A stretch of DNA of 63,838 bases, filler included, from Reclinomonas americana ATCC 50394 (Eukaryota): the NCBI GenBank assembly GCA_048213135.1. It is 15 parts of 15 records of this genome, joined end to end, with 100 filler letters (N's around TTAATTAATTAA, not from the genome) between each part and the next. Parts side by side here need not be neighbours in the genome. Positions count along the whole stretch, not along the records: positions 22,339 to 29,077 come from AFZH01018615.1; positions 29,178 to 42,967 come from AFZH01018616.1; 13 more parts are not named here. One strand, given 5' to 3'. Both the position numbers and the translations under genes were made by a program. The notes below the pieces were generated by a model, which saw nothing but the letters and a program-made list of their open reading frames with translations, was not told the origin of the DNA and searched no databases. Shown piece after piece: positions 8,135 to 42,011 of the stretch (its first letter is position 1; each line of letters begins with the position of its first letter).

Positions 8135-16277
<8,143 letters not shown>

Positions 16278-22911: not shown

Positions 22912-22945
<34 letters not shown>

Positions 22946-27198: not shown

Positions 27199-27427
27199 CC
27201 TCTCACTCACTCACTCTCTCACCATTGACCAACGTGCGACGCCACCACGACGACGACGAATGACTGACATTGTTGCTCACAGACGACACTGTGAGCAGAC
27301 CAAGCACGGCCATGGCAGCAGCGCGACGCCCAGCCGAGGCGCCGACAAGAAACATGGATGAAAAGGCAATGAAAAGCGCATGAAAAGCGTAGGACAACTC
27401 CTGCTGCTGCTGCTTTGCTTTTTTCGC

Positions 27428-28507
27428 ATGTCATCCGCCTCTCCTCCTTCTCACACTTGCAGTCTCCTGGAAGGACACACCGGGTTCGTGAACGCTGTTG
27501 CCGTCACTCCCGATGGTCTCCAACTGGTGAGCGGGAGTGATGACAAGACTGTGCGTGTGTGGTCTCTGGCGAGTGGCGAGGAGGTGCGACGACTGGAGGG
27601 ACACACCACATGGGTGTGCTGTGTCGCCGTCACTCGTGATGGATTATACATTGTGAGTGGCAGCTGGGACCAGACAGTGCGCGTATGGTCACTTATGAGT
27701 GGAGAACAAGTGCGACTGCTGGAGGGACACAGAGCCGCAGTGACGTGTGTTGCTGTCACCTCCGATGGTCAGCATGCTGTGAGCAGCGGTCACGACGAGA
27801 CCGTGAGAGTCTGGTCTCTGGTGACAGGCGAAGAGGTGCGTCAGATATGTACGAAGAGATTGGACCTTATTGTTTTGTCTCTGGCTGTGACTCCCGACAA
27901 CGAGCACATTGTGTGCGGAGGCGCTGACAAGATTGTGCGTGTGTGGGCACTCTCGAGTGGCGAGGAAGTGCGCCGGTTGGAGGGACACACGAGTATTATC
28001 TGTTCTGTCGCTGTGACTCCCGACGGTCTGCGCGTGGTGAGCGGGAGTCAGGATAGGACTGTGCGAGTGTGGTCGCTGGCGAGTGGCGAGGAGGTGCGAC
28101 GATTGGAGGGACACAGGAAAACGGTGCTGTGTGTGGCCGTCGCTCCCGATGGTCTGCACGTCGTAAGTGGCAGCGAAGACAAGACCACACGAATGTGGTC
28201 ACTGGCGAGTGGCGAGGAGGTGCGGCGATTTGAAGGCGGCGCGGGCGCCGTAGCCTTCACTCCAGACGGCCAGCGCATCGTAAGTGGCGGTTGGCATGGT
28301 AGATTGCGAGCTTTGTCGTCGCCGCTCGCTTTGGCCCGTCGCGAGCTCGACTGGGCGCGACTGGCGATGCGGGCGGTGCAGGAGGCACTGCTGGGAGGGG
28401 AGGAGAATCCGCGATGCTTGGCGGAGATGGTGCTGCGGTGCTTCATTGTGGAGGAGGTGGAGGTGGTACTTTTCCGGTGCAGCGCGGACTCCTCTTTGTG
28501 TTGGTGA
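27428..28507 (+). CDS. WD40 array copy 1: intronless 7-blade WD40 protein with conserved C-terminal tail
   Basis: MSSASPPSHTCSLLEGH, seven WD repeats, tail PLALARRELD...PRCLAEMVLRCFIVEE...FRC. An upstream in-frame ATG also exists at 27380. Confidence 0.9.
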   Translation: MSSASPPSHTCSLLEGHTGFVNAVAVTPDGLQLVSGSDDKTVRVWSLASGEEVRRLEGHTTWVCCVAVTRDGLYIVSGSWDQTVRVWSLMSGEQVRLLEGHRAAVTCVAVTSDGQHAVSSGHDETVRVWSLVTGEEVRQICTKRLDLIVLSLAVTPDNEHIVCGGADKIVRVWALSSGEEVRRLEGHTSIICSVAVTPDGLRVVSGSQDRTVRVWSLASGEEVRRLEGHRKTVLCVAVAPDGLHVVSGSEDKTTRMWSLASGEEVRRFEGGAGAVAFTPDGQRIVSGGWHGRLRALSSPLALARRELDWARLAMRAVQEALLGGEENPRCLAEMVLRCFIVEEVEVVLFRCSADSSLCW

Positions 28508-28683
28508 GACGTGAGGGATAAGGAGCAGAGAGAAGGTGGGAATGAAACTCACCGCGAAATGCGCTCACCCGTTGAGCTGAGATACACACAGCAACAACAA
28601 CAACGTCGAAGCCATCCAGTGTGTCCCACCTGTCTTTTCACTGTTTACATAACGCACTGGCTCCCTCTCCTCTCTTCTTCGTC

Positions 28684-29597
28684 ATGTCATCCGCCTCTCC
28701 CTTTTATTCTTGCAGTCTCCTGGAAGGACACACCGGCTGTGTGTACGCTGTCGCCGTCACTCCCGATGGTCTCAATGTTGTGACCGGCAGCAAGGACAAC
28801 ACTGTGCGTGTGTGGTCGGTGACGAGTGGGAGGGAGGAGCGGCGGTTGGAAGGGCACGCGAACTGGGTGCTCTGTTTGGCGATTACGCCCGACGGGCAGT
28901 ACATTGTCAGCGGCAGCAATGACAATACCATTCGAGTGTGGTGGCTGGCGACTGGCGACGAAGTGGTGTTGTTGGAGGGGCACAGAGATATGGTGACGTG
29001 CGTTGCTGTCAGCGGCGATGGTCAGCACATTGTGAGCGGCAGCTACGATGGGAGCGTGAGGGTGTGGTCCCTGGAAANNNNNNNNNNNNNNNNNNNNNNN
29101 NNNNNNNNNNNNNNNNNNNNNTTAATTAATTAANNNNNNNNNNNNNNNNNNNNNNNNNNNNNNNNNNNNNNNNNNNNCACGTCGTGAGTGGCAGCACTGA
29201 CATGACGTTGCGAATGTGGTCGCTGGCGAGCGCGAGTGGGTTGGAGGAGGTGTGCCAGGTCGCGAGTGGGAATTCGAAAGTCAGTTCTGTTGCTGTCACT
29301 CCCGACGGTCAGCATATTGTGAGCAACGCCGTCGGTGACAGCGCAGTGCGGGTGTGGTCCACGCCGCAAGGCCTCGCTCGGCGGGAGCTGGACACTGCGC
29401 GGCAGGCGATGCAGGCGTTGCAGGAGTTGATGGAGGAAGAAGAAGAAGAAGAAGATCCGCGGTTGCTGCCGGAATTTGTGCTGCGGTGTTTCATCGTGGA
29501 GGACGCTGCGGTGGTGCTGTTCCGCTGCAGCGTTCGCACGGCTGCGGAGCAGCTGGCGGACTTCGATATGGAAACAGATCTAGAGAGGACAGAATGA
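28684..29597 (+). CDS. WD40 array copy 2 (interrupted by gap 29078-29177; could be parts of two copies)
   Basis: MSSASPFYSCSLLEGH plus 3 repeats before the gap. Last repeats and tail follow the gap, with an extended end ...FRCSVRTAAEQLADFDMETDLERTE*. Confidence 0.75.
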
Positions 29598-29779
29598 GAA
29601 AATAAAGGTCACTGCAGGGGTATCCTCGCCTCATGCCTCTTGCGATTCGTCTCCAACAGGAAGAGGCAGGGGAAAAAAAGAGAACTTCAAGTTGCGTCCC
29701 ACGCTGCGTCTCACACTCCCCGTCATCCGTCAATACAATCGCAATCGCACGCCGAGTCTCCCTTCTCCCGATCGGTGTC

Positions 29780-30871
29780 ATGTCACTCTCCACTCACTAT
29801 GATCTTCACAAGTGCCTGGAAGGACACACCGACATTGTGCTTCGTGTTGCCGTCACCTCCGACGGTCAGCACTGTGTGAGCGGCAGCAAGGACAAGACTG
29901 TGCGAGTGTGGTCCACGCAGAGTGGGAAAGAGGTGCGACGACTGGAGGGTCACACGAACTGGGTGCGCTGCGTTGCCGTCTCTCCGGACAGTCAGCATGT
30001 TGTGAGTGGCGGCGACGACAAGTCAGTGCGCGTGTGGTCACTGGCAAGTGGAGAGGAGGAGGTGCGACTGCTAAAGGGACACACTGAATGGGTGAACGCT
30101 GTCGCTGTCACACCGAATGGTCGCCACGTTGTGAGCGGGAGTGCAGACCGCACTGTGCGAGTGTGGTCACTGGACGATGGGAGAGGATACGAGGTGCAAC
30201 AGCTGGAGGGACACACGGAGGGTGTGCGCGCTGTTGCCATCACGCCGGATGGTCGGCGAGTGGTGAGTGGGAGCAATGATGGATCGGTGCGTGTGTGGTC
30301 GTTGGCGAGTGGAGACGAAGTGCGATGGTTGCGAGGTCACCGTGACTGGGTGTCGACTGTCGCTGTCACTCCCGATGGCGAGCACGTGGTGAGCGGGGGC
30401 GCCGATGAAGTAGTGCGCGTGTGGTCCATGTCGAGTGTTGAAGAGATCCGGCGTCTGGAGGGCCACACTGGCTGGGTATTCTCGGTGGCCGTCGCCGGCG
30501 ACGGACAGCTGGTTGTGAGCGGGGGCGCGGATGGTACGGTGCGCGTGTGGTCGCTGGCAACAGGGATGGAGATGCAGCGGCTGGAGGGACGCCATGGCCG
30601 AGTGCTATCGGTTGCGTTCACACCCGACGGGCAGTCGATCGTCAGCAGCGGCTTTGATTGCGTCGTGCGAGTGTGGTCCACGCTGCTCGGCCTCGCTCGG
30701 CAGGAGCTCGACACTGCGCGACTGGCCATGGAGGCGGTGCAGGCAATGGTGCAGGCAGAAGAAGAAGAGGATCCGCGGTGCTTGGTGGAGATTGTGCTGC
30801 GGTGTTTCATTGTGGAGGAAGCTGAGGCGGCGTGCTTCCGGTGCAGCGTGGATCCCGACTTGCATTGGTGA
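29780..30871 (+). CDS. WD40 array copy 3
   Basis: MSLSTHYDLHKCLEGH, 7 repeats, tail ending DPDLHW*. No introns. Confidence 0.9.
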   Translation: MSLSTHYDLHKCLEGHTDIVLRVAVTSDGQHCVSGSKDKTVRVWSTQSGKEVRRLEGHTNWVRCVAVSPDSQHVVSGGDDKSVRVWSLASGEEEVRLLKGHTEWVNAVAVTPNGRHVVSGSADRTVRVWSLDDGRGYEVQQLEGHTEGVRAVAITPDGRRVVSGSNDGSVRVWSLASGDEVRWLRGHRDWVSTVAVTPDGEHVVSGGADEVVRVWSMSSVEEIRRLEGHTGWVFSVAVAGDGQLVVSGGADGTVRVWSLATGMEMQRLEGRHGRVLSVAFTPDGQSIVSSGFDCVVRVWSTLLGLARQELDTARLAMEAVQAMVQAEEEEDPRCLVEIVLRCFIVEEAEAACFRCSVDPDLHW

Positions 30872-31061
30872 GGGGAAACTGAGTGTGGAAATGAAAGTCA
30901 CACAGTTGCATCCTCGCCTCATGCCTTTCCACTTCAATGGCAGTATGGAGAGAAGGTCGCTTCGGCAACTTCGAGCTTCAACAATTCGTCCCACACTTCT
31001 TCTCGTCAAGGTAGTAGTCAACCGCACGCCATCGTTCCTCCCTTTCCTCCCTCTCTCTGCC

Positions 31062-32129
31062 ATGTCATCCGCCTCTCTTAATCACCACTGTAGGCTTCTG
31101 GAGGGACACACGGAAGAGGTGCAGTCTGTTGCCGTGACTCCCGATGGCCAGCACATTGTGAGTTCGAGTGACGATGAGACGATGCGCGTGTGGTCGCTGG
31201 CGAGCGGGAAAGAAGTGCGACGATTTGAGGGGCTACCGTTCGTGAAGTCTGTTTTCATCACTCCCGATGGTCAGCAAGTAGTGGGTGGCGGCTTGGAGAA
31301 GACAGTGCACGTGTGGTCGCTGGCGACTGGAGAAGAAGTGCAACGATGGAAGGGTCACACTTCTGTGGTTTCCTCTGTTGCCGTCACTCCTGATGGTCAG
31401 CACGTTGTGAGTGGCAGTTGGGAGAAGACATTACGCGTGTGGTCACTGGCGAGTGGAGAGGAGGTGCGACGGCTGGAGGGACACACTGGATATGTGCACT
31501 GCGTCGCAGTCAGTCCCAACAGTCTGCATGTGGTGAGTGGGAGTGCGGACAAGACAGTGCGCGTGTGGTCGCTGGCGAGTGGGGAGGAATCGCGGCAGAT
31601 GGTGGGGCACTCTTCAGCTGTGTGGTCTGTTGCTGTCTCTCCCGACGGTCTGCATGTGGTGAGCGGGAGTGCCGATAAGACGGTGCGAGTGTGGTCGCTG
31701 GTGAGTGGTGAGGAGGTGCGCCGGTTGGAGGGGCACATGAAGTGGGTGTTGTGTGTCGCCGTCTCTCCCGATAGCCAGTTCATTGTCAGTGGTAGCAATG
31801 ACGACACTGTGCGGCTGTGGTCGCTGATGAGTGGCGAGGAGGTGCGACGATTCGAAGGTGGCGCCAGTGCTGTGGCTTTCACTCCTGATGGACAGCGCAT
31901 CGTGAGTGGTGGTTGGACACACAGACTGCGAGTGTTGTCTTCGCCGCTCGCCTTGTCACGTCACGAGCTCGACACCGCGCGACTGGCCATGGAGGCGGTG
32001 CAGGAGATGATGGAGGAAGGAGAAGAGGATCCGCGATGCCTGCCAGAGCTGGCGCTGCGGTGTTTCATCGTGGAGGAAGCCGAGGCGATGTGCTTCCGGT
32101 GCGGCGCTGATCCTGATTTGCATTGGTGA
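31062..32129 (+). CDS. WD40 array copy 4
   Basis: MSSASLNHHCRLLEGH, 7 repeats, conserved tail. Confidence 0.9.
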   Translation: MSSASLNHHCRLLEGHTEEVQSVAVTPDGQHIVSSSDDETMRVWSLASGKEVRRFEGLPFVKSVFITPDGQQVVGGGLEKTVHVWSLATGEEVQRWKGHTSVVSSVAVTPDGQHVVSGSWEKTLRVWSLASGEEVRRLEGHTGYVHCVAVSPNSLHVVSGSADKTVRVWSLASGEESRQMVGHSSAVWSVAVSPDGLHVVSGSADKTVRVWSLVSGEEVRRLEGHMKWVLCVAVSPDSQFIVSGSNDDTVRLWSLMSGEEVRRFEGGASAVAFTPDGQRIVSGGWTHRLRVLSSPLALSRHELDTARLAMEAVQEMMEEGEEDPRCLPELALRCFIVEEAEAMCFRCGADPDLHW

Positions 32130-32328
32130 GGCGTGTAGGAAGGCAGAGAAGAGCGTGCAAAAATGAAAGTCACAGAGTCACATCTTCGCCTCGTGCGTTC
32201 CATCTTCAATGGCCAAAAATCGAGAAGGTTCTGTGGCAACGTCGACGGAGCTTCAGCAATTCGTCCCACACTTCTTCTCGCCCTCAACCGCACGCCATCG
32301 TGCCTCCCTTTTTCTCCCTCTCTCTGCC

Positions 32329-33396
32329 ATGTCATCCGCCCCTCGTAATCACCACTGTCGTCTTCTGGAGGGTCACGCTCGTGAGGTGCGGTCCGTCGCC
32401 GTCACCCCTGACGGGCAGCATGTTGTGAGCGCTAGTGATGACGGTACTGTTCGTGTGTGGTCACTGGCGAGCGGGCGGGAGGTGCGACGACTGGAGGGGT
32501 ACATTAAGTGGGTGAACGCTCTCGCGGTCACTCCCGACAGTCAACACATTGTGGTGGGGTGCTCCGACGAGGCAATTCGAGTGTGGTCACTGGCGAGTGG
32601 CGAGGAAGTGCGACGATTGGTGGGGCACAGTAGGTTGTCGTCTTTCGCCGTTACTCCAGATGGCCAGCACGTTGTGAGTGGCAGTTGGGAGAAGATATTG
32701 CACGTGTGGTCACTGGCGAGTGGAGAGGAGGTGCGACGGCTGGAGGGACACACTGGAATGGTGATGTCTGTCACTGTCACTCCCGACGGTCAGCACGTGG
32801 TGAGCGGGAGTGGAGATAAGACAGTGCGTGTGTGGTCGCTGGCGAGCGGAGAGGAAGTGCAACAGATGGTGGGGCACACTGAGACTGTTCGATGTGTCGC
32901 CGTCTCTCCCGATGGTCTGCATGTGGTGAGCGGAAGTCACGACAAGACGGTGCGAGTGTGGTCACTGGCGAGTGGCGAGGAGGTGCGCCGGTTGGAGGGG
33001 CACATGAAGTGGGTGTTGTGTGTCGCCCTCACTCCCGATTCCAAGTTCATTGTCAGTGGGAGCATTGATGACACTGTGCGGCTGTGGTCGCTGATGGGTG
33101 GCGAGGAGGTGCGACGATTTGAAGGTGGCGCCAGTGCTGTGGCTGTCACTCCCGATGGCCAGAGCATTGTGAGTGGTGGTTGGACACACAGACTGCGAGT
33201 GTTGTCTTCGCCGCTCGCCTTGTCACGTCACGAGCTCGATACCGCGCGACTGGCCATGGAGGCGGTGCAGGAGGTAGTACCAGACGAAGACGTGGATTTG
33301 CGATGCCTGCCGGAGTTGGTGCTGCGATGTTTCATTGTGGAGGAGGCAGAGGCGATGTGCTTCCGGTGCAGCGCTGATCCCGAGTTGCATTGGTGA
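32329..33396 (+). CDS. WD40 array copy 5
   Basis: MSSAPRNHHCRLLEGH, 7 repeats. The 3' third is nearly identical to copy 4. Confidence 0.9.
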   Translation: MSSAPRNHHCRLLEGHAREVRSVAVTPDGQHVVSASDDGTVRVWSLASGREVRRLEGYIKWVNALAVTPDSQHIVVGCSDEAIRVWSLASGEEVRRLVGHSRLSSFAVTPDGQHVVSGSWEKILHVWSLASGEEVRRLEGHTGMVMSVTVTPDGQHVVSGSGDKTVRVWSLASGEEVQQMVGHTETVRCVAVSPDGLHVVSGSHDKTVRVWSLASGEEVRRLEGHMKWVLCVALTPDSKFIVSGSIDDTVRLWSLMGGEEVRRFEGGASAVAVTPDGQSIVSGGWTHRLRVLSSPLALSRHELDTARLAMEAVQEVVPDEDVDLRCLPELVLRCFIVEEAEAMCFRCSADPELHW

Positions 33397-33595
33397 GGCA
33401 GGATAATATGTGGGAATAAAATCGCTGCGGTGTGTTCTTGCCCTATGCCTCATGCGGTTCGTCTCCGAGAAAAGAGAGCAACTTCGATGCAGTTGAACAA
33501 GTCCCACACTTTCTTCTCGCACTCCGTCCCACGCCATCGCACTCCCTTTCCTTCTCTCTCTCTCTCTCCCTCCCTCCCCCCTCCCTCTCTCTGCC

Positions 33596-34666
33596 ATGTC
33601 ATCCGCCTCTCCCATTCACTCTTGCAGTTTCCTGGAGGGACACACCGATGGCGTTCTCTGCGTCGCCATCACTCCCGACGGGAAGCACTGTGTGAGTGGC
33701 AGCAAGGACAAGACTGTGCGTCTGTGGTCACTGGCAAGTGGGAAAGAGGTGCGACGACTGGTGGGTCACACGAACTGGGTGCGTTGTGTCACCGTCACTC
33801 CCGATGGACAGCATGTTGTGAGCGGCGGTGATGATGATTCTGTGCATGTGTGGTCACTGGCGACTGGAGAGGAAGTGCGACAGTTGGAGGGTCCCACTGC
33901 CTGGGTGTCGTGCGTTGCCGTGACTCCCGATGGTCAGCATGTCGTGGGTGCGAGGGGAGACAACACAGTGCGAGTGTGGTCACTGGCGAGTGGCGAGGAG
34001 GTGCGACGGCTAGAGGGACACACGGATAGTGTGCGCTCTGTTGCCATCACTCCCGACGGTCAGCACGTGGTGAGCGGGAGCCATGACAGGACAGTGCGCG
34101 TGTGGTTGCTGACGAGTGGCGAGGAAGTGCGTCAAATGGCGTGGCACGCCGGGTGGGTAACGTCTGTCGCCGTCACTCCCGACGGCCTGCATGTGGTGAG
34201 CGGAGATATGGTCAAGACAGTGCGCATGTGGTCGCTGGCGAGTGGCGAGGAGGTGCGACGGTTTGAGGGGCACACGAAAGCGGTGCTGTGTGTCGCCGTC
34301 GCTCCAGATAGTCAGTTCATTGTCAGCGGGAGCCATGACAACACTGTGCGAATGTGGTCCTCGGTGACTGGTGAGGAGGTGCGCCAGTTCGAGGGGAAAG
34401 TCAACCGCGTGGCTGTCACTCCCGACGGGCAGTCAATCGTCAACAGCGGCTTCGAATTTGTTGTGCGAGCTTTGTCTTCGCCACTCGCCTTGGCCCGCCG
34501 TGAGTTCGCCACCGCACGGCAGGCCACGCAGGCGGCGCACGAGATGATGGAAGAAGAAGAAGAGGATCCGCGGTGCCTGGTGGAGATCGTGCTGCGGTGT
34601 TTCATTGTGGAGGAAGCTGAGGCGATGTGCTTCCGGTGCAGCGCGGATCCCGACTTGCATTGGTGA
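33596..34666 (+). CDS. WD40 array copy 6
   Basis: MSSASPIHSCSFLEGH, 7 repeats, conserved tail. Confidence 0.9.
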   Translation: MSSASPIHSCSFLEGHTDGVLCVAITPDGKHCVSGSKDKTVRLWSLASGKEVRRLVGHTNWVRCVTVTPDGQHVVSGGDDDSVHVWSLATGEEVRQLEGPTAWVSCVAVTPDGQHVVGARGDNTVRVWSLASGEEVRRLEGHTDSVRSVAITPDGQHVVSGSHDRTVRVWLLTSGEEVRQMAWHAGWVTSVAVTPDGLHVVSGDMVKTVRMWSLASGEEVRRFEGHTKAVLCVAVAPDSQFIVSGSHDNTVRMWSSVTGEEVRQFEGKVNRVAVTPDGQSIVNSGFEFVVRALSSPLALARREFATARQATQAAHEMMEEEEEDPRCLVEIVLRCFIVEEAEAMCFRCSADPDLHW

Positions 34667-34806
34667 CGCGCGAAAGAGAGAAGAGAGCCAAGAAGGCGTG
34701 TTACCCATCAATAAAGAGTTGTCCTTGTCCTTGTTTTCGACCACACTCTTCATCTTTCGCATTTCGCAGCGCACACACGCATCCCTTCCTTCACCTTTCC
34801 CTCCCC

Positions 34807-35895
34807 ATGTCGCTCACCACCCCCACCATCGCTCACCAATGCCTGATTGGCCACGTGAGCGCCGTGACAAGTATCGCCTTCACCGTCGACGACACCCACA
34901 TTGTGAGCGGCAGCTGGGACACCACCCTCCGCGTGTGGTCTGTGACCAGTGGAGAACAAGTGCAACACATGGAAGGCCACGTGAGCTGGGTGCGAAGTGT
35001 GGCCGTCACACCCGATGGAGAGCACGCGGTGAGCTGCGGTCGCGATCTGTCGTTGCGTGTGTGGTCGCTGGCAAGTGGGCAAGAGGTGCGACAGTTCATG
35101 GGTCACGCGTACGCGGTGATGTCGGTCGCGGTGACACCCGATGGACAACACCTGGTCAGTGGGAGCGAGGACAGGACTGTGCGAGTGTGGTCGCTGGCGA
35201 GGGGCGTGGAGGTGCGACGAATGGAGAGGCACACGGACCGGGTGTCGGCCGTGGCCGTCACTCCCGACGGAGAGTTTGTTGTGAGCGGGAGCTGGGACGC
35301 GTCGGTGCGAGTGTGGTCGCTGGCGAGCGGAGTGCAGCTGTGGCGATTCAAAGGGCACACAAAGTGGGTGCTGTGTGCGGCGGTCACTGCCGATGGGCAG
35401 CACGTAGTGAGCGGCGGCTGTGACGCGACGGTGCTTGTGTGGTCGCTGGCGAGTGGGCGACAGGAGCGCTGCTTGCTCGGGCACGAGGATGCGGTGTGTT
35501 CTGTCGCCGTCACACCGAATAGTCAGCATGTGGTGAGTGGCGGGGACGACAAGACTGTGCGAGTGTGGTCGCTGGCAAGTGGACAAGAGGTGCAGCGGTT
35601 GTACGGTCACACGGATCGGGTGTTTGCTGTCGCCGTCTCTCACGATGGTCTGCGCGTTGCGAGTGGAGGCTATGACGAGACGGTACGGGTGTGGTCACTG
35701 CCGCACGCCTTTGCCTGTCGCGAGCTTGATACTGCGCGGGAGGCCGTGCAGGCGGTACAGGAGATAATGATAGGAGAAGAGGGAGAGGAGGATCCGCGGT
35801 GCCTGCCGGAGATCGTGTTGCGGTGTTTCGTGGTGGAGGAGGCTGAGGTGGTCCTCTTCCGTTGCAGTGCAGTTTCTGATTTGTACGTGGAGTGA
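34807..35895 (+). CDS. WD40 array copy 7
   Basis: MSLTTPTIAHQCLIGH, 7 repeats, tail LPHAFACRELD...CLPEIVLRCFVVEE...FRCSAVSDLYVE*. Confidence 0.9.
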   Translation: MSLTTPTIAHQCLIGHVSAVTSIAFTVDDTHIVSGSWDTTLRVWSVTSGEQVQHMEGHVSWVRSVAVTPDGEHAVSCGRDLSLRVWSLASGQEVRQFMGHAYAVMSVAVTPDGQHLVSGSEDRTVRVWSLARGVEVRRMERHTDRVSAVAVTPDGEFVVSGSWDASVRVWSLASGVQLWRFKGHTKWVLCAAVTADGQHVVSGGCDATVLVWSLASGRQERCLLGHEDAVCSVAVTPNSQHVVSGGDDKTVRVWSLASGQEVQRLYGHTDRVFAVAVSHDGLRVASGGYDETVRVWSLPHAFACRELDTAREAVQAVQEIMIGEEGEEDPRCLPEIVLRCFVVEEAEVVLFRCSAVSDLYVE

Positions 35896-35940
35896 ACTTC
35901 AACACAAGTGTCCGTCCGTCCCTCTCTCCCACCCCCCCTA

Positions 35941-37020
35941 ATGTCACTTGTCACGCACATTCACCGCCACAAGCGCCGCTTGGTGGGACACACTGCAGGG
36001 GTGAACTCGGTGGCCTTCACTCCCGATGGACTGCACGTGGTGAGTGGCAGTCGAGACACCACAGTGCGCGTGTGGTCTCTGGCGAGTGGCGAGGAGGTGC
36101 GACAGCTGGAGGGCCACGTTGATGTGGTGCGGTCTGTCGCCGTCACGCCCGACAGTCGGCACATTGTGAGCGGCGCTGATGACAGGACTGTGCGCGTGTG
36201 GTCTCTTGAGAGTGGCGACGAGGTGCGGGTGCTGCGAGGACACACTGACTTTGTGTTTGCTGTCGCTGTCACTCCCGATGGCCGGCATGTGGTGAGCGGA
36301 AGCCGCGACATGACTGTGCGACTGTGGTCCATCGAAAGTGGAAATGCAGTGTGCCAGTTGCGGGGACACACTGGCGCAGTGCTGTCTGTCGCCGTCACTC
36401 CCGATGGCCTCCGCGTTGTGAGTGGCAGCCAGGACAACACCGTGCGAGTGTGGTCGCTGGCGAATGGAGGAGAATTGCAGTGGCTTTTTGAGGGGCACAC
36501 CTATTTGGTAATGTCTGTCGCCGTCACTCTCGACGGTCTGCATGTGGTGAGCGGGAGCTACGACAAGACAGTGCGCGTGTGGTCACTGTCGAGTGGCGCA
36601 GAGGTGCAACGGTTGGAGGGGCATACAACATGGGTGCGTGCAGTCGCAGTGACGCCCGATGGTCAGCACATTCTCGGTGGCAGCAATGAAAAGGCCGTGC
36701 GAGTGTGGTCGCTGGCACGTGGCGAAGAAGTGCTGCATTTGGCAGGTGAAACTATCGGAGTGCAATCGGTCGCCGTTTCGTCTGACGGGCAGCATGTGGC
36801 GAGCGGGGGTGACGACTGCAAGGTGCGAGTGTGGTCCCTGCCGCATGCTTTTGCTTGTCGCGAGCTCGACGCTGCGCGGCTGGCCGTGCGGGCGGTAATA
36901 GAAGAGGAGGAGGAGGAGGATACGCGGTGTTTGCCGGAGCTTGTGCTGCGGTGTTTCATTGTGGAGGAGGCTGAGGTGGTGCTGTTCAGGTGCAGCATTG
37001 ATCCTGATGTGCACTGGTAG
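35941..37020 (+). CDS. WD40 array copy 8
   Basis: MSLVTHIHRHKRRLVGH, 7 repeats. The ATG lies only 45 bp after the stop of copy 7. Confidence 0.9.
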   Translation: MSLVTHIHRHKRRLVGHTAGVNSVAFTPDGLHVVSGSRDTTVRVWSLASGEEVRQLEGHVDVVRSVAVTPDSRHIVSGADDRTVRVWSLESGDEVRVLRGHTDFVFAVAVTPDGRHVVSGSRDMTVRLWSIESGNAVCQLRGHTGAVLSVAVTPDGLRVVSGSQDNTVRVWSLANGGELQWLFEGHTYLVMSVAVTLDGLHVVSGSYDKTVRVWSLSSGAEVQRLEGHTTWVRAVAVTPDGQHILGGSNEKAVRVWSLARGEEVLHLAGETIGVQSVAVSSDGQHVASGGDDCKVRVWSLPHAFACRELDAARLAVRAVIEEEEEEDTRCLPELVLRCFIVEEAEVVLFRCSIDPDVHW

Positions 37021-37184
37021 AGCAGGCGGAAAAATGAAGGTCAAAGTGTTGCATCCTCCCTTCATGCGTTCCCCGTACGCGACGGCAGCGCAGCAACTTC
37101 GACCTCGCCTGCGAACGTGTCCCACAGTCTTTCTCGCACTCCTGTTGCACGCCATCCTGCCTCCCTTGCTCTCTTCTCCGTGTC

Positions 37185-38273
37185 ATGTCATCCGCCTCTC
37201 CCCTTCACTCTTGCACTCTGCTGGAGGGTCACGCTCAGGAGGTGCGGTCTGTCGCCGTGACTCCCAACGGAGAGTACATTATCAGCGGAGGTGATGACGC
37301 AACAGTGCGTCTGTGGTCACTGGTGAGCGGGAAAGAAGTGCGACGATTGGAGGGACACGCTAGCGGCGTGTGGTCAGTCGCCGTCACTCCCGACAGCCAG
37401 CGCATTGTGATGGGGTGCGTTGACAAGACCATTCGCGTGTGGTCACTAACGAGCGGAGAAGAAGTGCGACGGTTGGTGGGACACGCTGCTTTGGTGTCAT
37501 CTGTGGCCGTCACTCCCAACGGTCAGCACGTCGTGAGTGGGAGCTTTGACAACACAGTGTGTGTGTGGTCGCTGGCGACGGGCGAAGAGGTGCGACAGGT
37601 GAAGCCTAATGTGTACACGTTTCGCTTTCTTGTGTTGTCTGTCACCGTCACTCCTAATGGACGGTACATTGTGAGCGGAAGTGCTGACAAGATGGTGCGT
37701 GTGTGGTCGCTGGCGAGTGGCAGGCAAGTGCAGCAGCTGGAAGGACACGCGGAATCGGTGAACTCTGTCGCCGTCACTCCCAACGGGCAGTACGTGGTCA
37801 GTGGGAGTCACGATACAACAGTGCGAGTGTGGTCGCTGGCGAGTGGCGCAGAGGTGCGACGGTTGGAGGGGCATACTGGGTGGGTGACTTCTGTCGCCGT
37901 CACTCCCGATGGTTTGCATGTGGTGAGTGGCGGCAACGACAACGCCATACGAATGTGGTCACTGGCGAGCGGCGAGGAGGTGCGCCGGTTTGATGGAACA
38001 GTCAGCTCCATCGCCATTACACCCGATGGTCAGGGCATTGTAAGCGGCGCCGGTCGCGACAAGTCCGTGCGAGTGTGGCATTCACCGTACGCCTTGGTCC
38101 GTCGCGAGCTGGACGCTGCACGACTGGCCATGCAGGCGGTGCGGGAGGTGGTGCCACACGAAGAAGACGTGGATCAGCGGTGCTTGCCGGAGCTGGTACT
38201 GCGGTGCTTCATTGTGGAGGATGCAGCTGTCCTGCTGTTCCGCTGCAGCATGGACTCTGATATGCGCTGGTAA
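37185..38273 (+). CDS. WD40 array copy 9
   Basis: MSSASPLHSCTLLEGH, 7 repeats, conserved tail. Confidence 0.9.
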   Translation: MSSASPLHSCTLLEGHAQEVRSVAVTPNGEYIISGGDDATVRLWSLVSGKEVRRLEGHASGVWSVAVTPDSQRIVMGCVDKTIRVWSLTSGEEVRRLVGHAALVSSVAVTPNGQHVVSGSFDNTVCVWSLATGEEVRQVKPNVYTFRFLVLSVTVTPNGRYIVSGSADKMVRVWSLASGRQVQQLEGHAESVNSVAVTPNGQYVVSGSHDTTVRVWSLASGAEVRRLEGHTGWVTSVAVTPDGLHVVSGGNDNAIRMWSLASGEEVRRFDGTVSSIAITPDGQGIVSGAGRDKSVRVWHSPYALVRRELDAARLAMQAVREVVPHEEDVDQRCLPELVLRCFIVEDAAVLLFRCSMDSDMRW

Positions 38274-38422
38274 TGAAGAAAGAGAGCATGTAGATAACTG
38301 AATGCTAGGTTCTCTTCTTGCGTTCCCGTACGCGACGGCAGTGCAGCAACTTCGACCTCGCAGAGTCCGTCCCACAACGCTTCTCGCACCGACTCGGCAC
38401 GCCTCTCGTCCCTCTCGCTCTC

Positions 38423-39520
38423 ATGTCATCCGCCACTCCCCTTCACCACTGCAGTCTCCTGGAGGGCCACACTCGCGACGTGCGGTCTGTCGCCATCACT
38501 CCCAACGGAGAGTACATTATCAGCGGTAGTGCTGACGAAACAGTACGTGTGTGGTCACTGGCGAGTGGCGAAGAAGTGCAACGCCTGGTGGGTCACACTC
38601 TGGAGGTGCGTTGCGTCGCCATCACTCCCGACAGTCAGCAAGTGGTGAGTGTGAGCAATGACTCGACGGTACGAGTGTGGTCGCTGGCGAGTGGCGAGGA
38701 AGTGCGACGACGCGGCGGGTGGGTGACGTCAGTTGCCGTCACTCCCGACGGTCAGCACGTGGTGGGTGGGTGCGTTGACAGGAACGTGCGAGTGTGGTCG
38801 TTGGCGACGGGAGAGGAGGTGCGGCGGTACACTGTGCGACGGATTGACTTCCAGGTGCTTTGTGTTACCGGCACCCCTGACGGGCAACACGTTGTCAGCG
38901 GGGGTGCTGACAACATGGTGCGAGTGTGGTCACTGGCGAGTGGCGGGCAAGTGCAGCAGCTGGAGGGACACGCGGGATGGGTGCATTCTGTCGCTGTAAC
39001 TCCCGACGGTCAGCATGTGGTGAGCGGGAGTTATGACAAGACAGTGCGAGTGTGGTCACTGGCGAGTGGACAAGAGGTGCGTCGGCTGGAGGGACACCAC
39101 TCCTGCGTGTGGTGTGTCGCCATCAGCCTCGACGGCCAGCACGTTGTCAGCGGAGGCGACGATCAGATCGTGCGGATGTGGTCGCTGGCGAGCGGAGAGG
39201 AGGTGCGGCGATTTGAGGGGCACGGAGGAAGAGTCAACACGGTTGCTGTCTCGCCGGATGTTCAGCATGTGGTGAGTGGCGGGCACGGCGCGACTGTGCG
39301 GGTGTGGTCTTCGCCTCTCGGTGTTGCCCGTCGCGAGCTCGATTGTGCGCGGCAGGCCATGCAGGCGGTGCGGGAGGCAATGCAGGAAGACGAAGGAAGA
39401 GAAGAAGAGGGAGAGGGGGATCCGCGGTGCTTGCCGGAGTTGGTGCTGCGGTGTTTCATTGTGGAGGATGCAGCTGGCCTGGTGTTCCGATGCAGCATGG
39501 ACCCTGATATGCGCTGGTAA
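38423..39520 (+). CDS. WD40 array copy 10
   Basis: MSSATPLHHCSLLEGH, 7 repeats, conserved tail. Confidence 0.9.
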   Translation: MSSATPLHHCSLLEGHTRDVRSVAITPNGEYIISGSADETVRVWSLASGEEVQRLVGHTLEVRCVAITPDSQQVVSVSNDSTVRVWSLASGEEVRRRGGWVTSVAVTPDGQHVVGGCVDRNVRVWSLATGEEVRRYTVRRIDFQVLCVTGTPDGQHVVSGGADNMVRVWSLASGGQVQQLEGHAGWVHSVAVTPDGQHVVSGSYDKTVRVWSLASGQEVRRLEGHHSCVWCVAISLDGQHVVSGGDDQIVRMWSLASGEEVRRFEGHGGRVNTVAVSPDVQHVVSGGHGATVRVWSSPLGVARRELDCARQAMQAVREAMQEDEGREEEGEGDPRCLPELVLRCFIVEDAAGLVFRCSMDPDMRW

Positions 39521-39674
39521 TGAAGAAAGAGAGCATGTAGATAAATGGTCACAACGTTGCAGGGTTCCCTACTGCAGAGCAGCAACTTCGATCCGCAGTC
39601 CGTCCCATACAGTTCTTCGCGCACTCACGCGCCATCGTGCCTTCCTTTCTCTCTACTCCATTCCTCTCGCGCAC

Positions 39675-40748
39675 ATGTCATCCGCCTCTCCCCTTCACTC
39701 TTGCAGTCACCTGAAAGGACACACCGACAGCGTTCTCTGTGTCGCCGTCACTCCCGACGGTCTCCAAGTGGTGAGCGGCAGCAAGGACAAGACTGTGCGT
39801 GTGTGGTCACTGGCAAGTGGACAAGAGATGCACCGGCTGGAGGGTCACACGAACTGGGTGCGTTGCGTCACCGTCACTCCCGATGGACAACACGGTGTGA
39901 GTGGCGGTGATGACAAGTCAGTGCGTGTGTGGTCACTGGCGACTGGAGAGGAAGTGCGACTGCTAAATGGACACACTGACTGGGTGTACGCTGTCGCTGT
40001 TACCCCCGATGGTCAGCATGTCGTGAGTGGAAATGGCGACCGAACGATCCGAGTGTGGTCACTCGCGTGTGGAAGAGAAGCGCGACGGTTGGAGGGGCAC
40101 ACCGCCGCTGTGTATTGTGTCGCCGTCACACCCGATGGCCTGCACGTTGTGAGCGGGAGTCAGGACTCGACAGTGCGCGTGTGGTCACTGGCGAGTGGAG
40201 AGCAAGTGCGACGGCTGGAGGGACATTCGTCACTGGTGCGGTCAGTTGCCGTCCCTCCCGACGGTCTGCATGTGGTGAGCGGGAGCTGGGACAAGACTGT
40301 GCGAGTGTGGTCGCTGGCGAGTGGAGAAGAAGTGCGACGGATGCAGGGGGACTTTGATTGGGTGAGCTCTGTCGGCATCACCCACTATGGTCAGCAAGTC
40401 GTAAGCGGAGTTGACAGTAGGACCGTGCGGATGTGGTCGCTGGCGAGCGGAGAGGAGGTGCGGCGATTTGAAGGTGGTGCCAATGCTGTGGCTGTCACTC
40501 CCGATGGTCAGCGCATTGTAAGTGGCTGTCACGACAAGACAGTGCGGGTGTGGACTTCGCCCCTCGGTGTTGCCCGTCGCGAGCTCGATTGTGCACGACA
40601 GGCCATGCAGGTAGTGCAGGAGATGGTGCAGGAAGAAGAAGAAGAGGATCCGCGATGCCTGCCGGAGCTGGTGCTGCGGTGTTTCATTGTGGAGGAGGCT
40701 GAGGTGGTGCTCTTTCGCTGCAGCATGGATCCCGAAATGCGTTGGTGA
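39675..40748 (+). CDS. WD40 array copy 11
   Basis: MSSASPLHSCSHLKGH, 7 repeats, conserved tail. Confidence 0.9.
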   Translation: MSSASPLHSCSHLKGHTDSVLCVAVTPDGLQVVSGSKDKTVRVWSLASGQEMHRLEGHTNWVRCVTVTPDGQHGVSGGDDKSVRVWSLATGEEVRLLNGHTDWVYAVAVTPDGQHVVSGNGDRTIRVWSLACGREARRLEGHTAAVYCVAVTPDGLHVVSGSQDSTVRVWSLASGEQVRRLEGHSSLVRSVAVPPDGLHVVSGSWDKTVRVWSLASGEEVRRMQGDFDWVSSVGITHYGQQVVSGVDSRTVRMWSLASGEEVRRFEGGANAVAVTPDGQRIVSGCHDKTVRVWTSPLGVARRELDCARQAMQVVQEMVQEEEEEDPRCLPELVLRCFIVEEAEVVLFRCSMDPEMRW

Positions 40749-40940
40749 CGCGCGAAAGGGAGAGAAGAGCATGAGGTAGTAAATGGCACTGGGAGTGCCC
40801 TAGCTTTGCGAGTTCTGTCTCCAACAGAATGTGCAGATATGATATGAGAGGCAACGTCGAGAGACAGTCAATTGATAAATCGTGTCCCTCGCTCCCACAC
40901 TCGCCTCCCTTGCTCTCTTCTCCTTCTCCCTCTCCCTGTC

Positions 40941-42011
40941 ATGTCATCCGCCTCTCCCCTTCACACCTGCACTCTGCTGGAGGGTCACACCGACAGCGTT
41001 CGCTGTGTCGCCATCACCCCCGACGGTCAGCACTGTGTCAGCGGCAGCATCGACACTGTGTGTGTGTGGTCACTGGCGAGTGGCGAGGAGGTGCGACGAC
41101 TGGAGGGGCGCTTTGACGCGGTGACCTCTCTCGCCATCACTCCCGACAGTCAGCACGTTGTGATGGGGTGCGGTGACGCGACCATTCGCGTGTGGTCACT
41201 GGCCAGTGGAGAAGAAGTGCGACGACTGGAGGGACACACTGCTGTGGTGTTATCTGTGGTTATCACTCCCGACGGCCTCCGCGTTGTAAGTGGGAGTGCT
41301 GACAAGAGTGCGCGCGTGTGGTCACTGGCGACGGGCAAAGAGGTGCGACAGCTGCAGCGAAGTGTATACTCGTTTCTTTTTCTTGTGTTGTCGGTGGCTG
41401 CAGCTCCCGATAATGAGCACTGTGTGAGTGGAAGTGCTGATAAGATGGTGCGATTGTGGTCGCTGGCGAGCGGTGGGGAAGTTCGATGGATGGAAGGGCA
41501 CGCGGGATCGGTGAACTCTGTCGCCGTCACTCCCGACGGTCAGCATGTGGTGAGCGGGAGTCACGATGCGACAGTGCGAGTGTGGTCACTGGCGAGTGGC
41601 GCAGAGGTGCGACGGTTGGAGGGGCATACTGGGTGGGTGACTTCTGTCGCCGTCACTCCCGATGGTTTGCATGTGTTGAGTGGCGGCCATGACAAGACCA
41701 TACGAATGTGGTCGCTGGCAAGTGGCGAGGAGGTGCGCCGCTTTGATGGAACAGTCAGCTCCATCGCCATTACACCCGATGGTCAGCGCATTGTGAGCGG
41801 CACCGGTGGCGACAATGCAGTGCGGGTATTGTCGTCGCCATACGCCTTGGCCCGTCGCGAACTTGATAGTGCGCGGCAGGCCATGCGGGCGGTGCAGGAA
41901 GAAGAAGAAGATCCACGTTGCTTGCCGGAGGTCGTGCTGCGGTGCTTCATCGTGGAGGAGGCTGAGGTGCTGCTTTTCCGGTGCAGTATGGATCCCGACT
42001 TGCGTTGGTGA
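40941..42011 (+). CDS. WD40 array copy 12
   Basis: MSSASPLHTCTLLEGH, 7 repeats. Blades 5-7 are nearly identical to copy 9. Confidence 0.9.
   Translation: MSSASPLHTCTLLEGHTDSVRCVAITPDGQHCVSGSIDTVCVWSLASGEEVRRLEGRFDAVTSLAITPDSQHVVMGCGDATIRVWSLASGEEVRRLEGHTAVVLSVVITPDGLRVVSGSADKSARVWSLATGKEVRQLQRSVYSFLFLVLSVAAAPDNEHCVSGSADKMVRLWSLASGGEVRWMEGHAGSVNSVAVTPDGQHVVSGSHDATVRVWSLASGAEVRRLEGHTGWVTSVAVTPDGLHVLSGGHDKTIRMWSLASGEEVRRFDGTVSSIAITPDGQRIVSGTGGDNAVRVLSSPYALARRELDSARQAMRAVQEEEEDPRCLPEVVLRCFIVEEAEVLLFRCSMDPDLRW

What the first reader, a model, noticed from the sequence alone, without database searches (positions are those of the whole stretch)
27428..42011. Tandem repertoire of at least 12 intronless 7-blade WD40 genes with constant scaffold and hypervariable surface positions
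Seen: 12 head-to-tail genes of ~355-365 aa, all complete copies with open frames. Their ~42-aa repeats share a nearly fixed scaffold (EVRRLEGHxxxVxxVAVTPDGxHVVSGSxDxTVRVWSLASG). Variation concentrates just after GH (TGFVNA, TTWVCC, MKWVLC, AYAVMS, HSCVWC, TYLVMS) and at SGS-x-D-x (W, K, H, Y, N, Q, R, E). Established: these correspond to the propeller top-face positions that are diversified in the highly internally conserved WD repeats of fungal HNWD/NWD non-self receptors (Podospora HET-E/HET-D). Inference: this is a diversified library of stand-alone recognition modules, with no NTPase attached, possibly a protist innate-immune or allorecognition repertoire.
Basis: partly seen in the sequence, partly recalled or inferred. 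Interest (0 to 1): 0.9.

Follow-up and report, generated by a model that had tools for sequence, protein, structure and literature searches.

The report
Tandem WD40 genes with variable faces
A protist scaffold carries a head-to-tail run of about a dozen related genes for seven-bladed WD40 propellers that share a fixed framework and a previously undescribed tail but differ almost completely on one binding face; they look like a set of adaptors with different targets, and an immune role is possible but not shown.

Summary
Window 27428-42011 holds 11 complete intronless genes (355-365 aa) plus a twelfth interrupted by an assembly gap, all on the + strand. Two more partial copies lie at 62756-63838 (-). 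Each complete gene has 7 WD40 blades (77 blades).

Variability peaks at repeat positions 4, 5, 7, 23 and 25 (3.2-3.7 bits). These lie in the d-a loop, the start of strand a and the b-c turn, which form the top face. They match in pattern the four codons reported as positively selected in Podospora HET-D/E.

It matches no Pfam or PDB family and has 2 relatives among 1.84 billion representatives. One is a Reclinomonas americana EST.

The tests do not support the HNWD-like reading:
- No position shows dN/dS significantly above 1; the hypervariable sites run at about the synonymous rate (0.6-1.3).
- Blades are 62% identical, not 85% or more.
- There is no within-gene concerted evolution.
- Blade number is fixed at 7.
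- There is no NTPase.

Paralogs are old (pS about 0.5), all intact, and mosaic.

Best reading: an adaptor family with a constant docking tail and a variable binding face. The ligands are unknown.

The parts
27428..28507 (+). g1: 7-blade WD40 + tail, 359 aa
28684..29076 (+). 5' part (3 blades) of the gene cut by the assembly gap
29078..29177 (.). 100-nt contig linker (44 N + TTAATTAATTAA + 44 N) inside that gene
29178..29597 (+). 3' part of the gap-split gene: end of blade 6, blade 7 and a variant tail (RLL for RCL, different C-end)
29780..30871 (+). g2: 7-blade WD40 + tail, 363 aa
31062..32129 (+). g3: 7-blade WD40 + tail, 355 aa; 3' two thirds 90-99% identical to g4 in 30-codon windows
32329..33396 (+). 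g4: 7-blade WD40 + tail, 355 aa
33596..34666 (+). g5: 7-blade WD40 + tail, 356 aa
34807..35895 (+). g6: 7-blade WD40 + tail, 362 aa; ends ...LYVE
35941..37020 (+). g7: 7-blade WD40 + tail, 359 aa; only 45 nt after g6
37185..38273 (+). g8: 7-blade WD40 + tail, 362 aa; blades 5-7 are 85-93% nt identical to those of g11
38423..39520 (+). g9: 7-blade WD40 + tail, 365 aa
39675..40748 (+). g10: 7-blade WD40 + tail, 357 aa; the copy that was modelled
40941..42011 (+). g11: 7-blade WD40 + tail, 356 aa
63461..63838 (-). C-terminal part (2 blades + tail) of a further family member running off the window end
62756..62998 (-). N-terminal part (about 2 blades) of another family member, cut by a contig end
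30966..30974 (+). Example of the upstream box CAAC[GT]TCGA. All 8 window matches lie in array spacers: 28601, 30966, 32237, 33479, 37094, 38347, 39583, 40852

Best explanation
This is a lineage-restricted, tandemly amplified family of at least 14 genes in this window. Each encodes one consensus-like seven-bladed WD40 propeller followed by a conserved ~60-residue tail. The tail is predicted to be an alpha-helical hairpin with the motif R-C-L-P-E-x-V-L-R-C-F-I-V-E, and it belongs to no described family.

Shown: every complete copy is kept intact, and the framework and tail are under purifying selection. Five positions per blade on the top face have diverged almost to randomness at about the synonymous rate. 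Paralogs have exchanged segments.

Inferred mechanism: the constant tail docks every paralog onto one shared partner or complex, and the variable top face gives each paralog its own ligand. The array would then be a set of specificity adaptors or receptors with the logic 'constant handle, variable face'. Whether the ligands are self or non-self proteins is unknown. The host is an intron-bearing flagellate; the only named relative of the family is an EST of the jakobid Reclinomonas americana.
For: Anatomy:
- 11 complete genes plus 1 gap-split and 2 partial copies.
- 7 blades in 11 of 11 complete genes.
- AlphaFold2 model: mean pLDDT 85.4, pTM 0.82, 28 strands.

Tail:
- 16 invariant columns among the 11 window copies.
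- 12 columns remain invariant when the gap-gene copy, the end-of-window copy, P0121 and P0122 are added.
- No Pfam family matched by more than 1 of 11 tails (best E 0.075), and no PDB sequence below E 1.
- Modelled alone, it forms a two-helix hairpin with pLDDT 73.
- Relatives: 2 of 1.84 billion representatives. P0121 is the R. americana EST EC795383, so a relative is transcribed there. P0122 has a propeller only 22-27% identical but the same tail, i.e. the tail is the constant part.

Selection:
- Over the 55 paralog pairs, mean pS is 0.51. Outside the five hypervariable (HV) positions pN is 0.17 (pN/pS 0.35); at the HV positions pN is 0.61.
- 26 of 42 repeat positions are significantly under purifying selection.
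- All 11 complete genes keep open frames despite this divergence.

Top face:
- Entropy peaks at positions 4, 5, 7, 23 and 25.
- 62 distinct signatures among 63 blades; 16% identity at these positions against 70% elsewhere.
- Composition there is not random: W is 21 of 72 at position 5 and 9 of 77 at position 23.

Exchange between paralogs: mosaic identity profiles. Maximum chi-square breakpoints were reached by 0-1 of 500 permutations in 6 of 7 pairs tested. The more similar side differs between pairs: the 3' side in g3/g4, the 5' side in g5/g10.

Own regulatory elements: the CAAC[GT]TCGA box occurs 8 times in the window, all in array spacers on the + strand, against 1.6 expected.
Against: - No partner of the tail is known, and no binding was shown by any search.
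- In the full-length model the last 34 residues have pLDDT below 50.
- The hairpin fold match is generic: Z 7-8.5 to unrelated helical hairpins, within the tool's stated background for helical models.
- dN/dS of about 1 at the variable positions is equally what complete lack of constraint would give. On that view the top face might be unimportant, and the conserved bottom and side surfaces would be the functional ones.
- Expression of these particular copies was not observed.
- The 90-99% identical stretches between g3/g4 and g8/g11 could in principle include assembly chimeras in a short-contig draft. No reads were available to check.
Confidence: 0.5

Rival explanations
1. Innate-immune or allorecognition repertoire. 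The propellers are non-self sensors diversified by positive selection and repeat exchange, as in the fungal HNWD/NWD genes. The new tail would replace the NTPase and effector part as the signalling end.
For: - The variable positions match in pattern the four positively selected codons of HET-D/E (against PMC1805685 passages).
- Near-total divergence of the top face: 62 of 63 signatures are distinct.
- Tandem array with segment exchange between paralogs.
- 57% of residues at these positions are aromatic, charged, H or N.
Against: - 0 of 42 positions have significant dN>dS.
- In the youngest segments, hypervariable pN is 0.196 against all-site pS 0.244, a ratio of 0.80 (Fisher p 0.28).
- Blades are 62% identical; 0 of 165 within-gene pairs reach 85%.
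- Scaffold pS for different blades of the same gene (0.527) equals that for different genes (0.529), so there is no within-gene homogenisation.
- Blade number is fixed at 7 in 11 of 11 genes.
- No NTPase, HET or TIR domain is present.
- Paralogs are old (pS about 0.5), not a fast-turnover set.
- No polymorphism or challenge data exist.
Confidence: 0.15
2. Redundant amplified scaffold proteins. The functional surfaces are the conserved tail and the conserved bottom and side of the propeller. The top face is simply unconstrained and has drifted, so the copies would not differ in specificity.
For: - Hypervariable positions evolve at about the synonymous rate: 0.87-1.21 of the global synonymous rate.
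- Exposed bottom loops (repeat positions 12-15 and 31-37) are strongly conserved, with dN/dS 0.05-0.5 at most of them. That is unusual for WD40 proteins and would fit a functional bottom face.
Against: - Tryptophan is kept at position 5 in 21 of 72 blades, and sub-groups of paralogs share top-face signatures, e.g. NWRDK twice. This argues against pure drift.
- Eleven redundant copies would not all be expected to stay intact at pS about 0.5.
Confidence: 0.2
3. Assembly artefact. Fewer real genes were inflated or shuffled by mis-assembly of a repetitive locus.
For: - The assembly is a draft of short contigs joined by linkers; one linker falls inside a family gene.
- Some paralog pairs share 90-99% identical stretches of several hundred bases.
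Against: - Ten complete genes and one partial gene lie on one uninterrupted 13.8-kb contig (29178-42967).
- Copies differ by 13-29% at non-synonymous sites and 29-62% at synonymous sites, far more than read error or allelic variation.
- Each copy has its own diverged spacer.
Confidence: 0.03

Closest known systems
Fungal NWD/HNWD WD-repeat domains (Podospora anserina HET-D, HET-E, HET-R)
   Same: - Consensus-like WD40 repeats with a near-constant framework.
- Variability concentrated in two pairs of positions flanking a conserved residue, on the top (interaction) face.
- A multigene family with exchange of segments between members (PMC1805685 passages).
   Different: - No NACHT NTPase and no HET or other N-terminal effector; instead a C-terminal orphan tail.
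- Blades 62% rather than about 85-100% identical (PMC4986451 passages).
- No within-gene concerted evolution.
- Always 7 blades.
- Positive selection not detected.
- Genes are tandem rather than dispersed.
Highly repetitive bacterial WD40 propellers and designs derived from them (PDB 2ymu 'WD-40 repeat protein', 5yzv PkwA, WRAP-T 7big/7bie, Tako8 6g6m)
   Same: These are the best sequence matches among solved structures: 2ymu E 1.2e-150, WRAP-T about 1e-85, PkwA 1e-80. They share the same consensus-like blade. The best database hits of the propeller are likewise metagenomic 'WD40 repeat protein' entries, 27-59% identical over 58-91% of the query.
   Different: None of those hits covers the tail; query coverage was at most 91%, and the tail profile found only 2 proteins. 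The bacterial proteins are single long genes, often fused to kinase, TIR or other domains, not tandem arrays of single propellers. That 2ymu comes from Nostoc is recalled, not shown by a call.
Substrate-receptor families built as 'variable WD40 + constant docking module' (F-box/WD40 such as FBXW7; WD40 + SOCS-box proteins)
   Same: The working logic proposed here: a constant short module that plugs into a shared machine, plus a propeller top face that selects the target. FBXW7 is among the PDB sequence matches of the propeller (5v4b, E 8.6e-58).
   Different: No F-box or SOCS-box was detected: no Pfam family was matched by more than 1 of 11 tails at E up to 10. The resemblance is functional analogy recalled from general knowledge, not tested membership.
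Gcp1-Gcp3, the WD40 proteins co-occurring with the mitochondrial T2SS in jakobids, heteroloboseans and malawimonads (PMC8134430)
   Same: WD40 proteins restricted to a set of protists that includes jakobids (passages read).
   Different: They are described as Pex7-related. [quoted passage not shown] No evidence of kinship.

Membership tests
WD40 repeat superfamily (Pfam PF00400), 7-bladed beta-propeller | Repeated ~40-aa GH...WD-type units folding into 4-stranded blades | tested here: met
   PF00400 E 6e-61 to 6e-70 in 3 of 3 genes scanned. 7 units in 11 of 11 genes. The AF2 model has 28 strands, pLDDT 85.4.
Fungal NWD/HNWD NLR-type receptors | NACHT (or other STAND) NTPase N-terminal to the repeats | tested here: not met
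   Only WD40-type Pfam families in 3 of 3 genes scanned. Blade 1 starts at residue 15-16. Spacers are 45-199 nt.
Fungal NWD/HNWD NLR-type receptors | High internal repeat conservation (about 85% aa identity or more; PMC4986451 passages) | tested here: not met
   Within-gene blade identity has mean 0.62 and maximum 0.79; 0 of 165 pairs reach 0.85.
Fungal NWD/HNWD NLR-type receptors | Concerted evolution of repeats within and between genes | tested here: not met
   Scaffold pS is 0.527 for the same gene and 0.529 for different genes. 54 of 77 blades have their nearest neighbour at the same blade index; one row, g1 blade 7, had too few aligned bases to count. Exchange of longer segments between paralogs is seen. 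No second species was available for the species-clustering test.
Fungal NWD/HNWD NLR-type receptors | Positive diversifying selection on four top-face codons | tested here: inconclusive
   The same positions are the most variable. dN/dS there is 0.62-1.20, and 0 of 42 positions are significant (parsimony counting on 72 of 77 repeats). In young segments the ratio is 0.80, p 0.28. Synonymous sites are partly saturated, and no likelihood site model was run.
Fungal NWD/HNWD NLR-type receptors | Repeat-number polymorphism | tested here: not met
   7 blades in 11 of 11 complete genes. Variation between strains is not testable here.
SOCS-box or F-box substrate receptors | Recognisable SOCS-box or F-box module | tested here: not met
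   Pfam scan of the 11 tails at E up to 10 gave two unrelated single-member hits only. PDB profile search: best E 1.1. Fold search of the tail model found generic hairpins only, which is inconclusive for fold.
Gcp1-3 (miT2SS-associated WD40 proteins) | Sequence kinship with published Gcp1-3 sequences | tested here: inconclusive
   Three family motifs are absent from the 6 held supplementary files. No alignment to Gcp sequences was made.

The most novel reading that the evidence does not exclude
A deep-branching, jakobid-type protist keeps an NTPase-free, germline-encoded repertoire of WD40 'paratopes'. At least 14 propellers sit on an ultra-stable consensus scaffold, and their top faces are diversified and reshuffled between tandem paralogs. 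All are wired through a new helical-hairpin tail to one common signalling or degradation machine. This would be a non-self or prey/parasite recognition system that evolved independently of NLRs. The fungal HNWD repeats and the bacterial repetitive WD40s would be parallel uses of the same scaffold.
Probability: 0.15. Interest if true: 0.85.

Novelty: new variant of a known kind. Interest (0 to 1): 0.5.

Why it matters
Consensus-like WD40 repeats with hypervariable top-face residues are so far tied to STAND/NLR receptors of fungi and to multidomain proteins of multicellular bacteria. Here the same scaffold and the same variable positions appear without any NTPase. They occur as a tandem array of single propellers, each with a conserved tail that public protein sets hardly contain (2 relatives in 1.84 billion representatives).

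If the tail is a common docking handle, the family offers two things:
- a simple system for asking how repeat-protein binding repertoires arise by duplication and segment exchange;
- a new interaction module to characterise.

If the ligands turn out to be non-self, this would be a recognition system in a lineage for which I know of none described; no literature search was made on that point.

The negative results also matter. The family shows that a 'constant scaffold, variable face' pattern can be maintained by purifying selection on old paralogs. It needs neither concerted evolution nor detectable positive selection, so the pattern alone should not be read as immunity.

Tried and rejected
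1. Whole genome: none is held for this window, so no genome-wide count was possible.
2. Sequencing runs: none was listed for 31062-41000, and no RNA holder was listed. Read laying was therefore not used, and expression and assembly could not be checked.
3. Earlier notes of this scan: nothing by place or by sequence.
4. Full-length homologue search: 1308 hits, 120 listed, all generic WD40 proteins covering at most 91% of the query. None had the tail.
5. Tail-region word search in the 195-623 aa range: 35 candidates, none scored.
6. Tail in metagenome contigs: the 2 loci (L001, L002) are bacterial-type contigs. In L001 the match lies in a 149-aa ORF overlapping the opposite strand of a 540-aa ORF (L002 was not mapped to a frame), and no WD40 repeat is evident by eye in the listed ORFs of either locus. 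Judged spurious.
7. Tail in prokaryote genomes: 1 locus (L003, a Chloroflexota MAG) with a short RCFIVEEAEA-like string and no WD40 context in the 200 residues translated. Judged spurious.
8. Tail in viral contigs: none.
9. ESM Atlas: no usable hit for the tail. For the whole protein, only generic WD40 clusters from bacteria and fungi, scores 0.92-0.94.
10. Complex prediction with two copies of the tail (residues 288-357): no verdict (score 0.01). This is neither for nor against self-association.
11. Fold search of the tail model: Z 7-8.5 to many unrelated helical hairpins, within the tool's background for helical models. No specific relative.
12. Organism identification through the neighbouring oligopeptidase B exon: only bacterial-labelled or unnamed S9 peptidases, 46-60% identical. 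Uninformative.
13. Gcp1-3 lead from PMC8134430: no support.
14. Literature: searches 'jakobid / WD40 / nuclear genome' and 'Reclinomonas americana / WD repeat / WD40 / tandem / gene family expansion' listed no paper describing this family. bioRxiv supplements and non-held journals were not seen.
15. Zinc-binding cysteine cluster in the tail: rejected. Only one Cys (in LRCF) is invariant once the gap-gene copy, P0121 and P0122 are included.
16. Kinetoplastid-style polycistronic array: rejected. Neighbouring genes (oligopeptidase B, DRC7) are split into exon-like ORFs, and each family gene has its own conserved upstream box.
17. Script slips: wrong regular expression, fixed; an empty no-op.

Full report
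**What the window is.** The 63,838-nt window is not one continuous sequence. Fourteen 100-nt linkers (44 N + TTAATTAATTAA + 44 N) join 15 contigs. The order appears to be real scaffolding. An oligopeptidase-B-like gene on the minus strand is spread over exon-like ORFs on both sides of the linker at 22239-22338. A DRC7 (dynein regulatory complex) gene is likewise spread over several contigs. The host is therefore an intron-bearing, flagellated eukaryote. No whole genome is held and no sequencing run was listed, so genome-wide counts, expression and read-level checks of the assembly were out of reach.

**The observation.**
- ORF listing and tblastn show 11 complete genes on the + strand between 27428 and 42011. 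They encode 355-365 aa and are 54-68% identical to the copy used as query.
- A twelfth gene has its 5' three blades (28684-29076) and its 3' end (29178-29597) separated by a linker. About 2.4 blades are missing, which fits one 7-blade gene spanning a gap of about 300 nt. That is inference; the copy is not a verified complete gene.
- Ten complete genes sit on one uninterrupted 13.8-kb contig.
- Two more partial copies lie on the last contig on the minus strand.
- A repeat HMM finds 7 blades in 11 of 11 complete genes.
- An AlphaFold2 model of g10 is a confident 28-strand propeller (pLDDT 85.4, pTM 0.82).
- Spacers are 45-199 nt. Each carries a CT-rich tract abutting the ATG. Most carry a CAAC[GT]TCGA box 75-95 nt upstream: 8 matches in the window, all in array spacers on the + strand, against 1.6 expected by chance.

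**Where the variation is.** I aligned the 77 blades to a 42-position model (GH = positions 1-2).
- Entropy is 3.2-3.7 bits at positions 4, 5, 7, 23 and 25. It is 2.1-2.5 bits at positions 3 and 36, and at or below 2.0 elsewhere.
- DSSP on the model puts strands a-d at positions 6-11, 17-22, 26-31 and 37-42.
- So positions 4-5 lie in the d-a loop, 7 at the start of strand a, and 23 and 25 in the three-residue b-c turn.
- By the established WD40 topology (recalled), these elements make the top, ligand-binding face.
- The variable positions come as two pairs around conserved V6 and D24.
- Paoletti et al. 2007 (PMC1805685, passages read) report codons 7 and 9, and 25 and 27, under positive selection. 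These flank consensus positions 8 and 26 on the interaction surface of HET-D/E repeats. The pattern and the 18-residue spacing are the same; the 2-residue offset is my inference.
- 62 of the 63 fully aligned blades have a distinct five-residue signature. Same-blade identity between paralogs is 16% at these positions against 70% for the rest of the propeller.

Every copy ends in a conserved ~60-residue tail: a helix (ARRELDxARLAMxAVQE), an acidic linker, and DPRCLPELVLRCFIVEEAEVxLFRCSxDPDLxW.
- There are 16 invariant columns among the 11 window copies.
- The tail matches no Pfam family (no family matched by more than 1 of 11 tails, best E 0.075) and no PDB sequence (best E 1.1).
- A profile of the tail, run against 1.84 billion representative proteins of any length, found two proteins.
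  - P0121 is a 116-aa translation of the Reclinomonas americana EST EC795383 in EukProt. It is 62% identical to the copy at the end of the window.
  - P0122 is a 381-aa protein from an unnamed assembly. Its propeller is only 22-27% identical, but it carries the same tail.
- The EST shows that a relative is transcribed in a jakobid. It does not show which organism the window comes from.
- Twelve tail columns stay invariant across all 15 sequences, and only one cysteine does. That argues against a metal-binding cluster.
- Modelled alone, the tail is a two-helix hairpin (pLDDT 73). In the full-length model its last 34 residues are below pLDDT 50.
- The fold search returns only generic hairpins (Z 7-8.5).

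**How the family evolves.** I used Nei-Gojobori counts on codon-aligned blades.
- Age and constraint: mean pS is 0.51 between paralogs (range 0.29-0.62). pN is 0.17 outside the five hypervariable positions (pN/pS 0.35) and 0.61 at them. The paralogs are old, every copy is kept open, and the framework is under purifying selection.
- No concerted evolution within genes: scaffold pS is 0.480 for the same blade in different paralogs (330 pairs). It is 0.527 for different blades of one gene (165 pairs) and 0.529 for different blades of different genes (1650 pairs).
- Saturation: at codons with identical amino acids, observed pS (0.47-0.52) is below the 0.69 expected for random draws from the family's codon usage. 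Synonymous sites are thus not fully saturated, and all blades retain traces of a common origin.
- Internal conservation: within-gene blade identity is 62% (0 of 165 pairs at 85% or more). This is far below the threshold of about 85% used for 'highly internally conserved' fungal repeats (PMC4986451 passages).
- Mosaicism: paralogs are mosaic. g3/g4 go from 62-81% to 90-99% nt identity along the gene. g5/g10 do the opposite, and g8/g11 share a 3' block.
- Breakpoint tests: maximum chi-square breakpoints were reached by 0-1 of 500 permutations in 6 of 7 pairs tested. The g6/g7 breakpoint falls at the tail and may only reflect stronger constraint there.
- Segment exchange between paralogs is therefore likely. 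A contribution from assembly chimeras cannot be excluded without reads.

**Is there diversifying selection?**
- Closest pairs: dN at the hypervariable positions is 0.48 (g8/g11) and 0.45 (g3/g4), against framework dS of 0.37 and 0.42.
- Youngest shared segments pooled: hypervariable pN is 0.196 against all-site pS 0.244, a ratio of 0.80 (Fisher p 0.28). Framework pN is 0.068.
- Suzuki-Gojobori-type parsimony count on a tree of 72 of the 77 repeats: 0 of 42 positions have significant dN>dS and 26 of 42 have significant dN<dS.
- In that count, dN/dS at positions 4, 5, 7, 23 and 25 is 0.68, 1.20, 0.81, 0.62 and 0.83. Relative to the global synonymous rate it is 0.87-1.21.

The five positions thus change about three times faster than the framework and at roughly the neutral rate. 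Composition there is not neutral-looking (W in 21 of 72 blades at position 5), which hints at a mixture of retained and changing residues. Partial saturation, recombination and the absence of an outgroup limit all these tests.

**Interpretation.** What is shown:
- a lineage-restricted tandem family of intact genes;
- a constant framework and a constant orphan tail;
- a top face diverged almost to randomness;
- segment exchange between paralogs.

From this I infer an adaptor or receptor family. The tail would be the common handle that docks every paralog onto one partner, and the top face would give each paralog its own ligand (confidence 0.5). This is the logic of F-box/WD40 or SOCS-box/WD40 substrate receptors, but no such box is detectable, so it is analogy only. 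The immune or allorecognition version of this idea keeps some probability (0.15) because of the positional match with HET-D/E. However, four of six defining features of the fungal system were tested and not met; the selection test was inconclusive and only the match of variable positions was met. A drift reading, in which the top face is irrelevant and the conserved faces and tail are functional, gets 0.2. An assembly artefact gets 0.03.

**Closest known.** In sequence, the propeller is closest to highly repetitive bacterial WD40 propellers and designs based on them: 2ymu E 1.2e-150, WRAP-T, PkwA and Tako8. It is also close to metagenomic WD40 proteins, 27-59% identical without the tail. Such consensus-like sequences resemble each other whatever their history, so no transfer is claimed. 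The Gcp1-3 WD40 proteins of jakobids (PMC8134430) were checked as a lead and show no link. Two literature searches listed no description of this family.

**Verdict.** This is a real and well-defined feature: a new variant of a known kind (consensus WD40 with a hypervariable top face), here NTPase-free, tandem, and carrying a new tail. It is moderately interesting as it stands (0.5). It would be highly interesting if the ligands proved to be non-self.

Noticed in passing
window 1774-62752 (14 sites): Fourteen 100-nt linkers (44 N + TTAATTAATTAA + 44 N) join 15 contigs of 1-14 kb. Split genes across linkers suggest that order and orientation are real scaffolding.
   Followed up: yes
window 21562-26862 (-): Oligopeptidase-B-like (S9) gene in at least three exon-like ORFs directly upstream of the array, spanning a linker. 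Its best database hits are bacterial-labelled or unnamed peptidases, 46-60% identical.
   Followed up: partly
window 12939-15719 (+): 926-codon open frame (ATG at 13587) with a pentapeptide-repeat-like N-part (by eye, no Pfam hit) followed by about 14 WD40 blades (estimate, not counted). It is intronless, lacks the family tail, and is 33-37% identical to the array genes. A second, different WD40 gene type in the same scaffold.
   Followed up: partly
window 51789-56092 (+): Exon-like ORFs matching the DRC7 MORN and C-terminal domains (dynein regulatory complex subunit 7). This indicates a flagellate with introns.
   Followed up: no
window 59772-61046 (-): 425-codon stop-to-stop open frame with ankyrin repeats (Ank_2 E 1.8e-14).
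   Followed up: no
window 28601, 30966, 32237, 33479, 37094, 38347, 39583, 40852 (+): CAAC[GT]TCGA box: all 8 window matches lie in array spacers, 75-95 nt upstream of the ATG (1.6 expected). It is followed by a GTCCCAC-like box and a CT-rich tract that abuts the ATG. Possibly a family-specific promoter or start-site element.
   Followed up: partly
window 35896-35940: The spacer between g6 and g7 is only 45 nt, against 140-199 nt for the others. g6 also ends differently (…LYVE instead of …HW/RW).
   Followed up: no
window 29178-29597 (+): The gap-split copy has a variant tail: RLL instead of the otherwise invariant RCL, and a longer unrelated C-end after FRCS.
   Followed up: partly
window 27380-27427 (+): In g1 only, the open frame extends 16 codons upstream (MKSVGQLLLLLLCFFR) and looks like a signal peptide. 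The other copies have no such extension, so it is probably a chance reading of the upstream tract.
   Followed up: no
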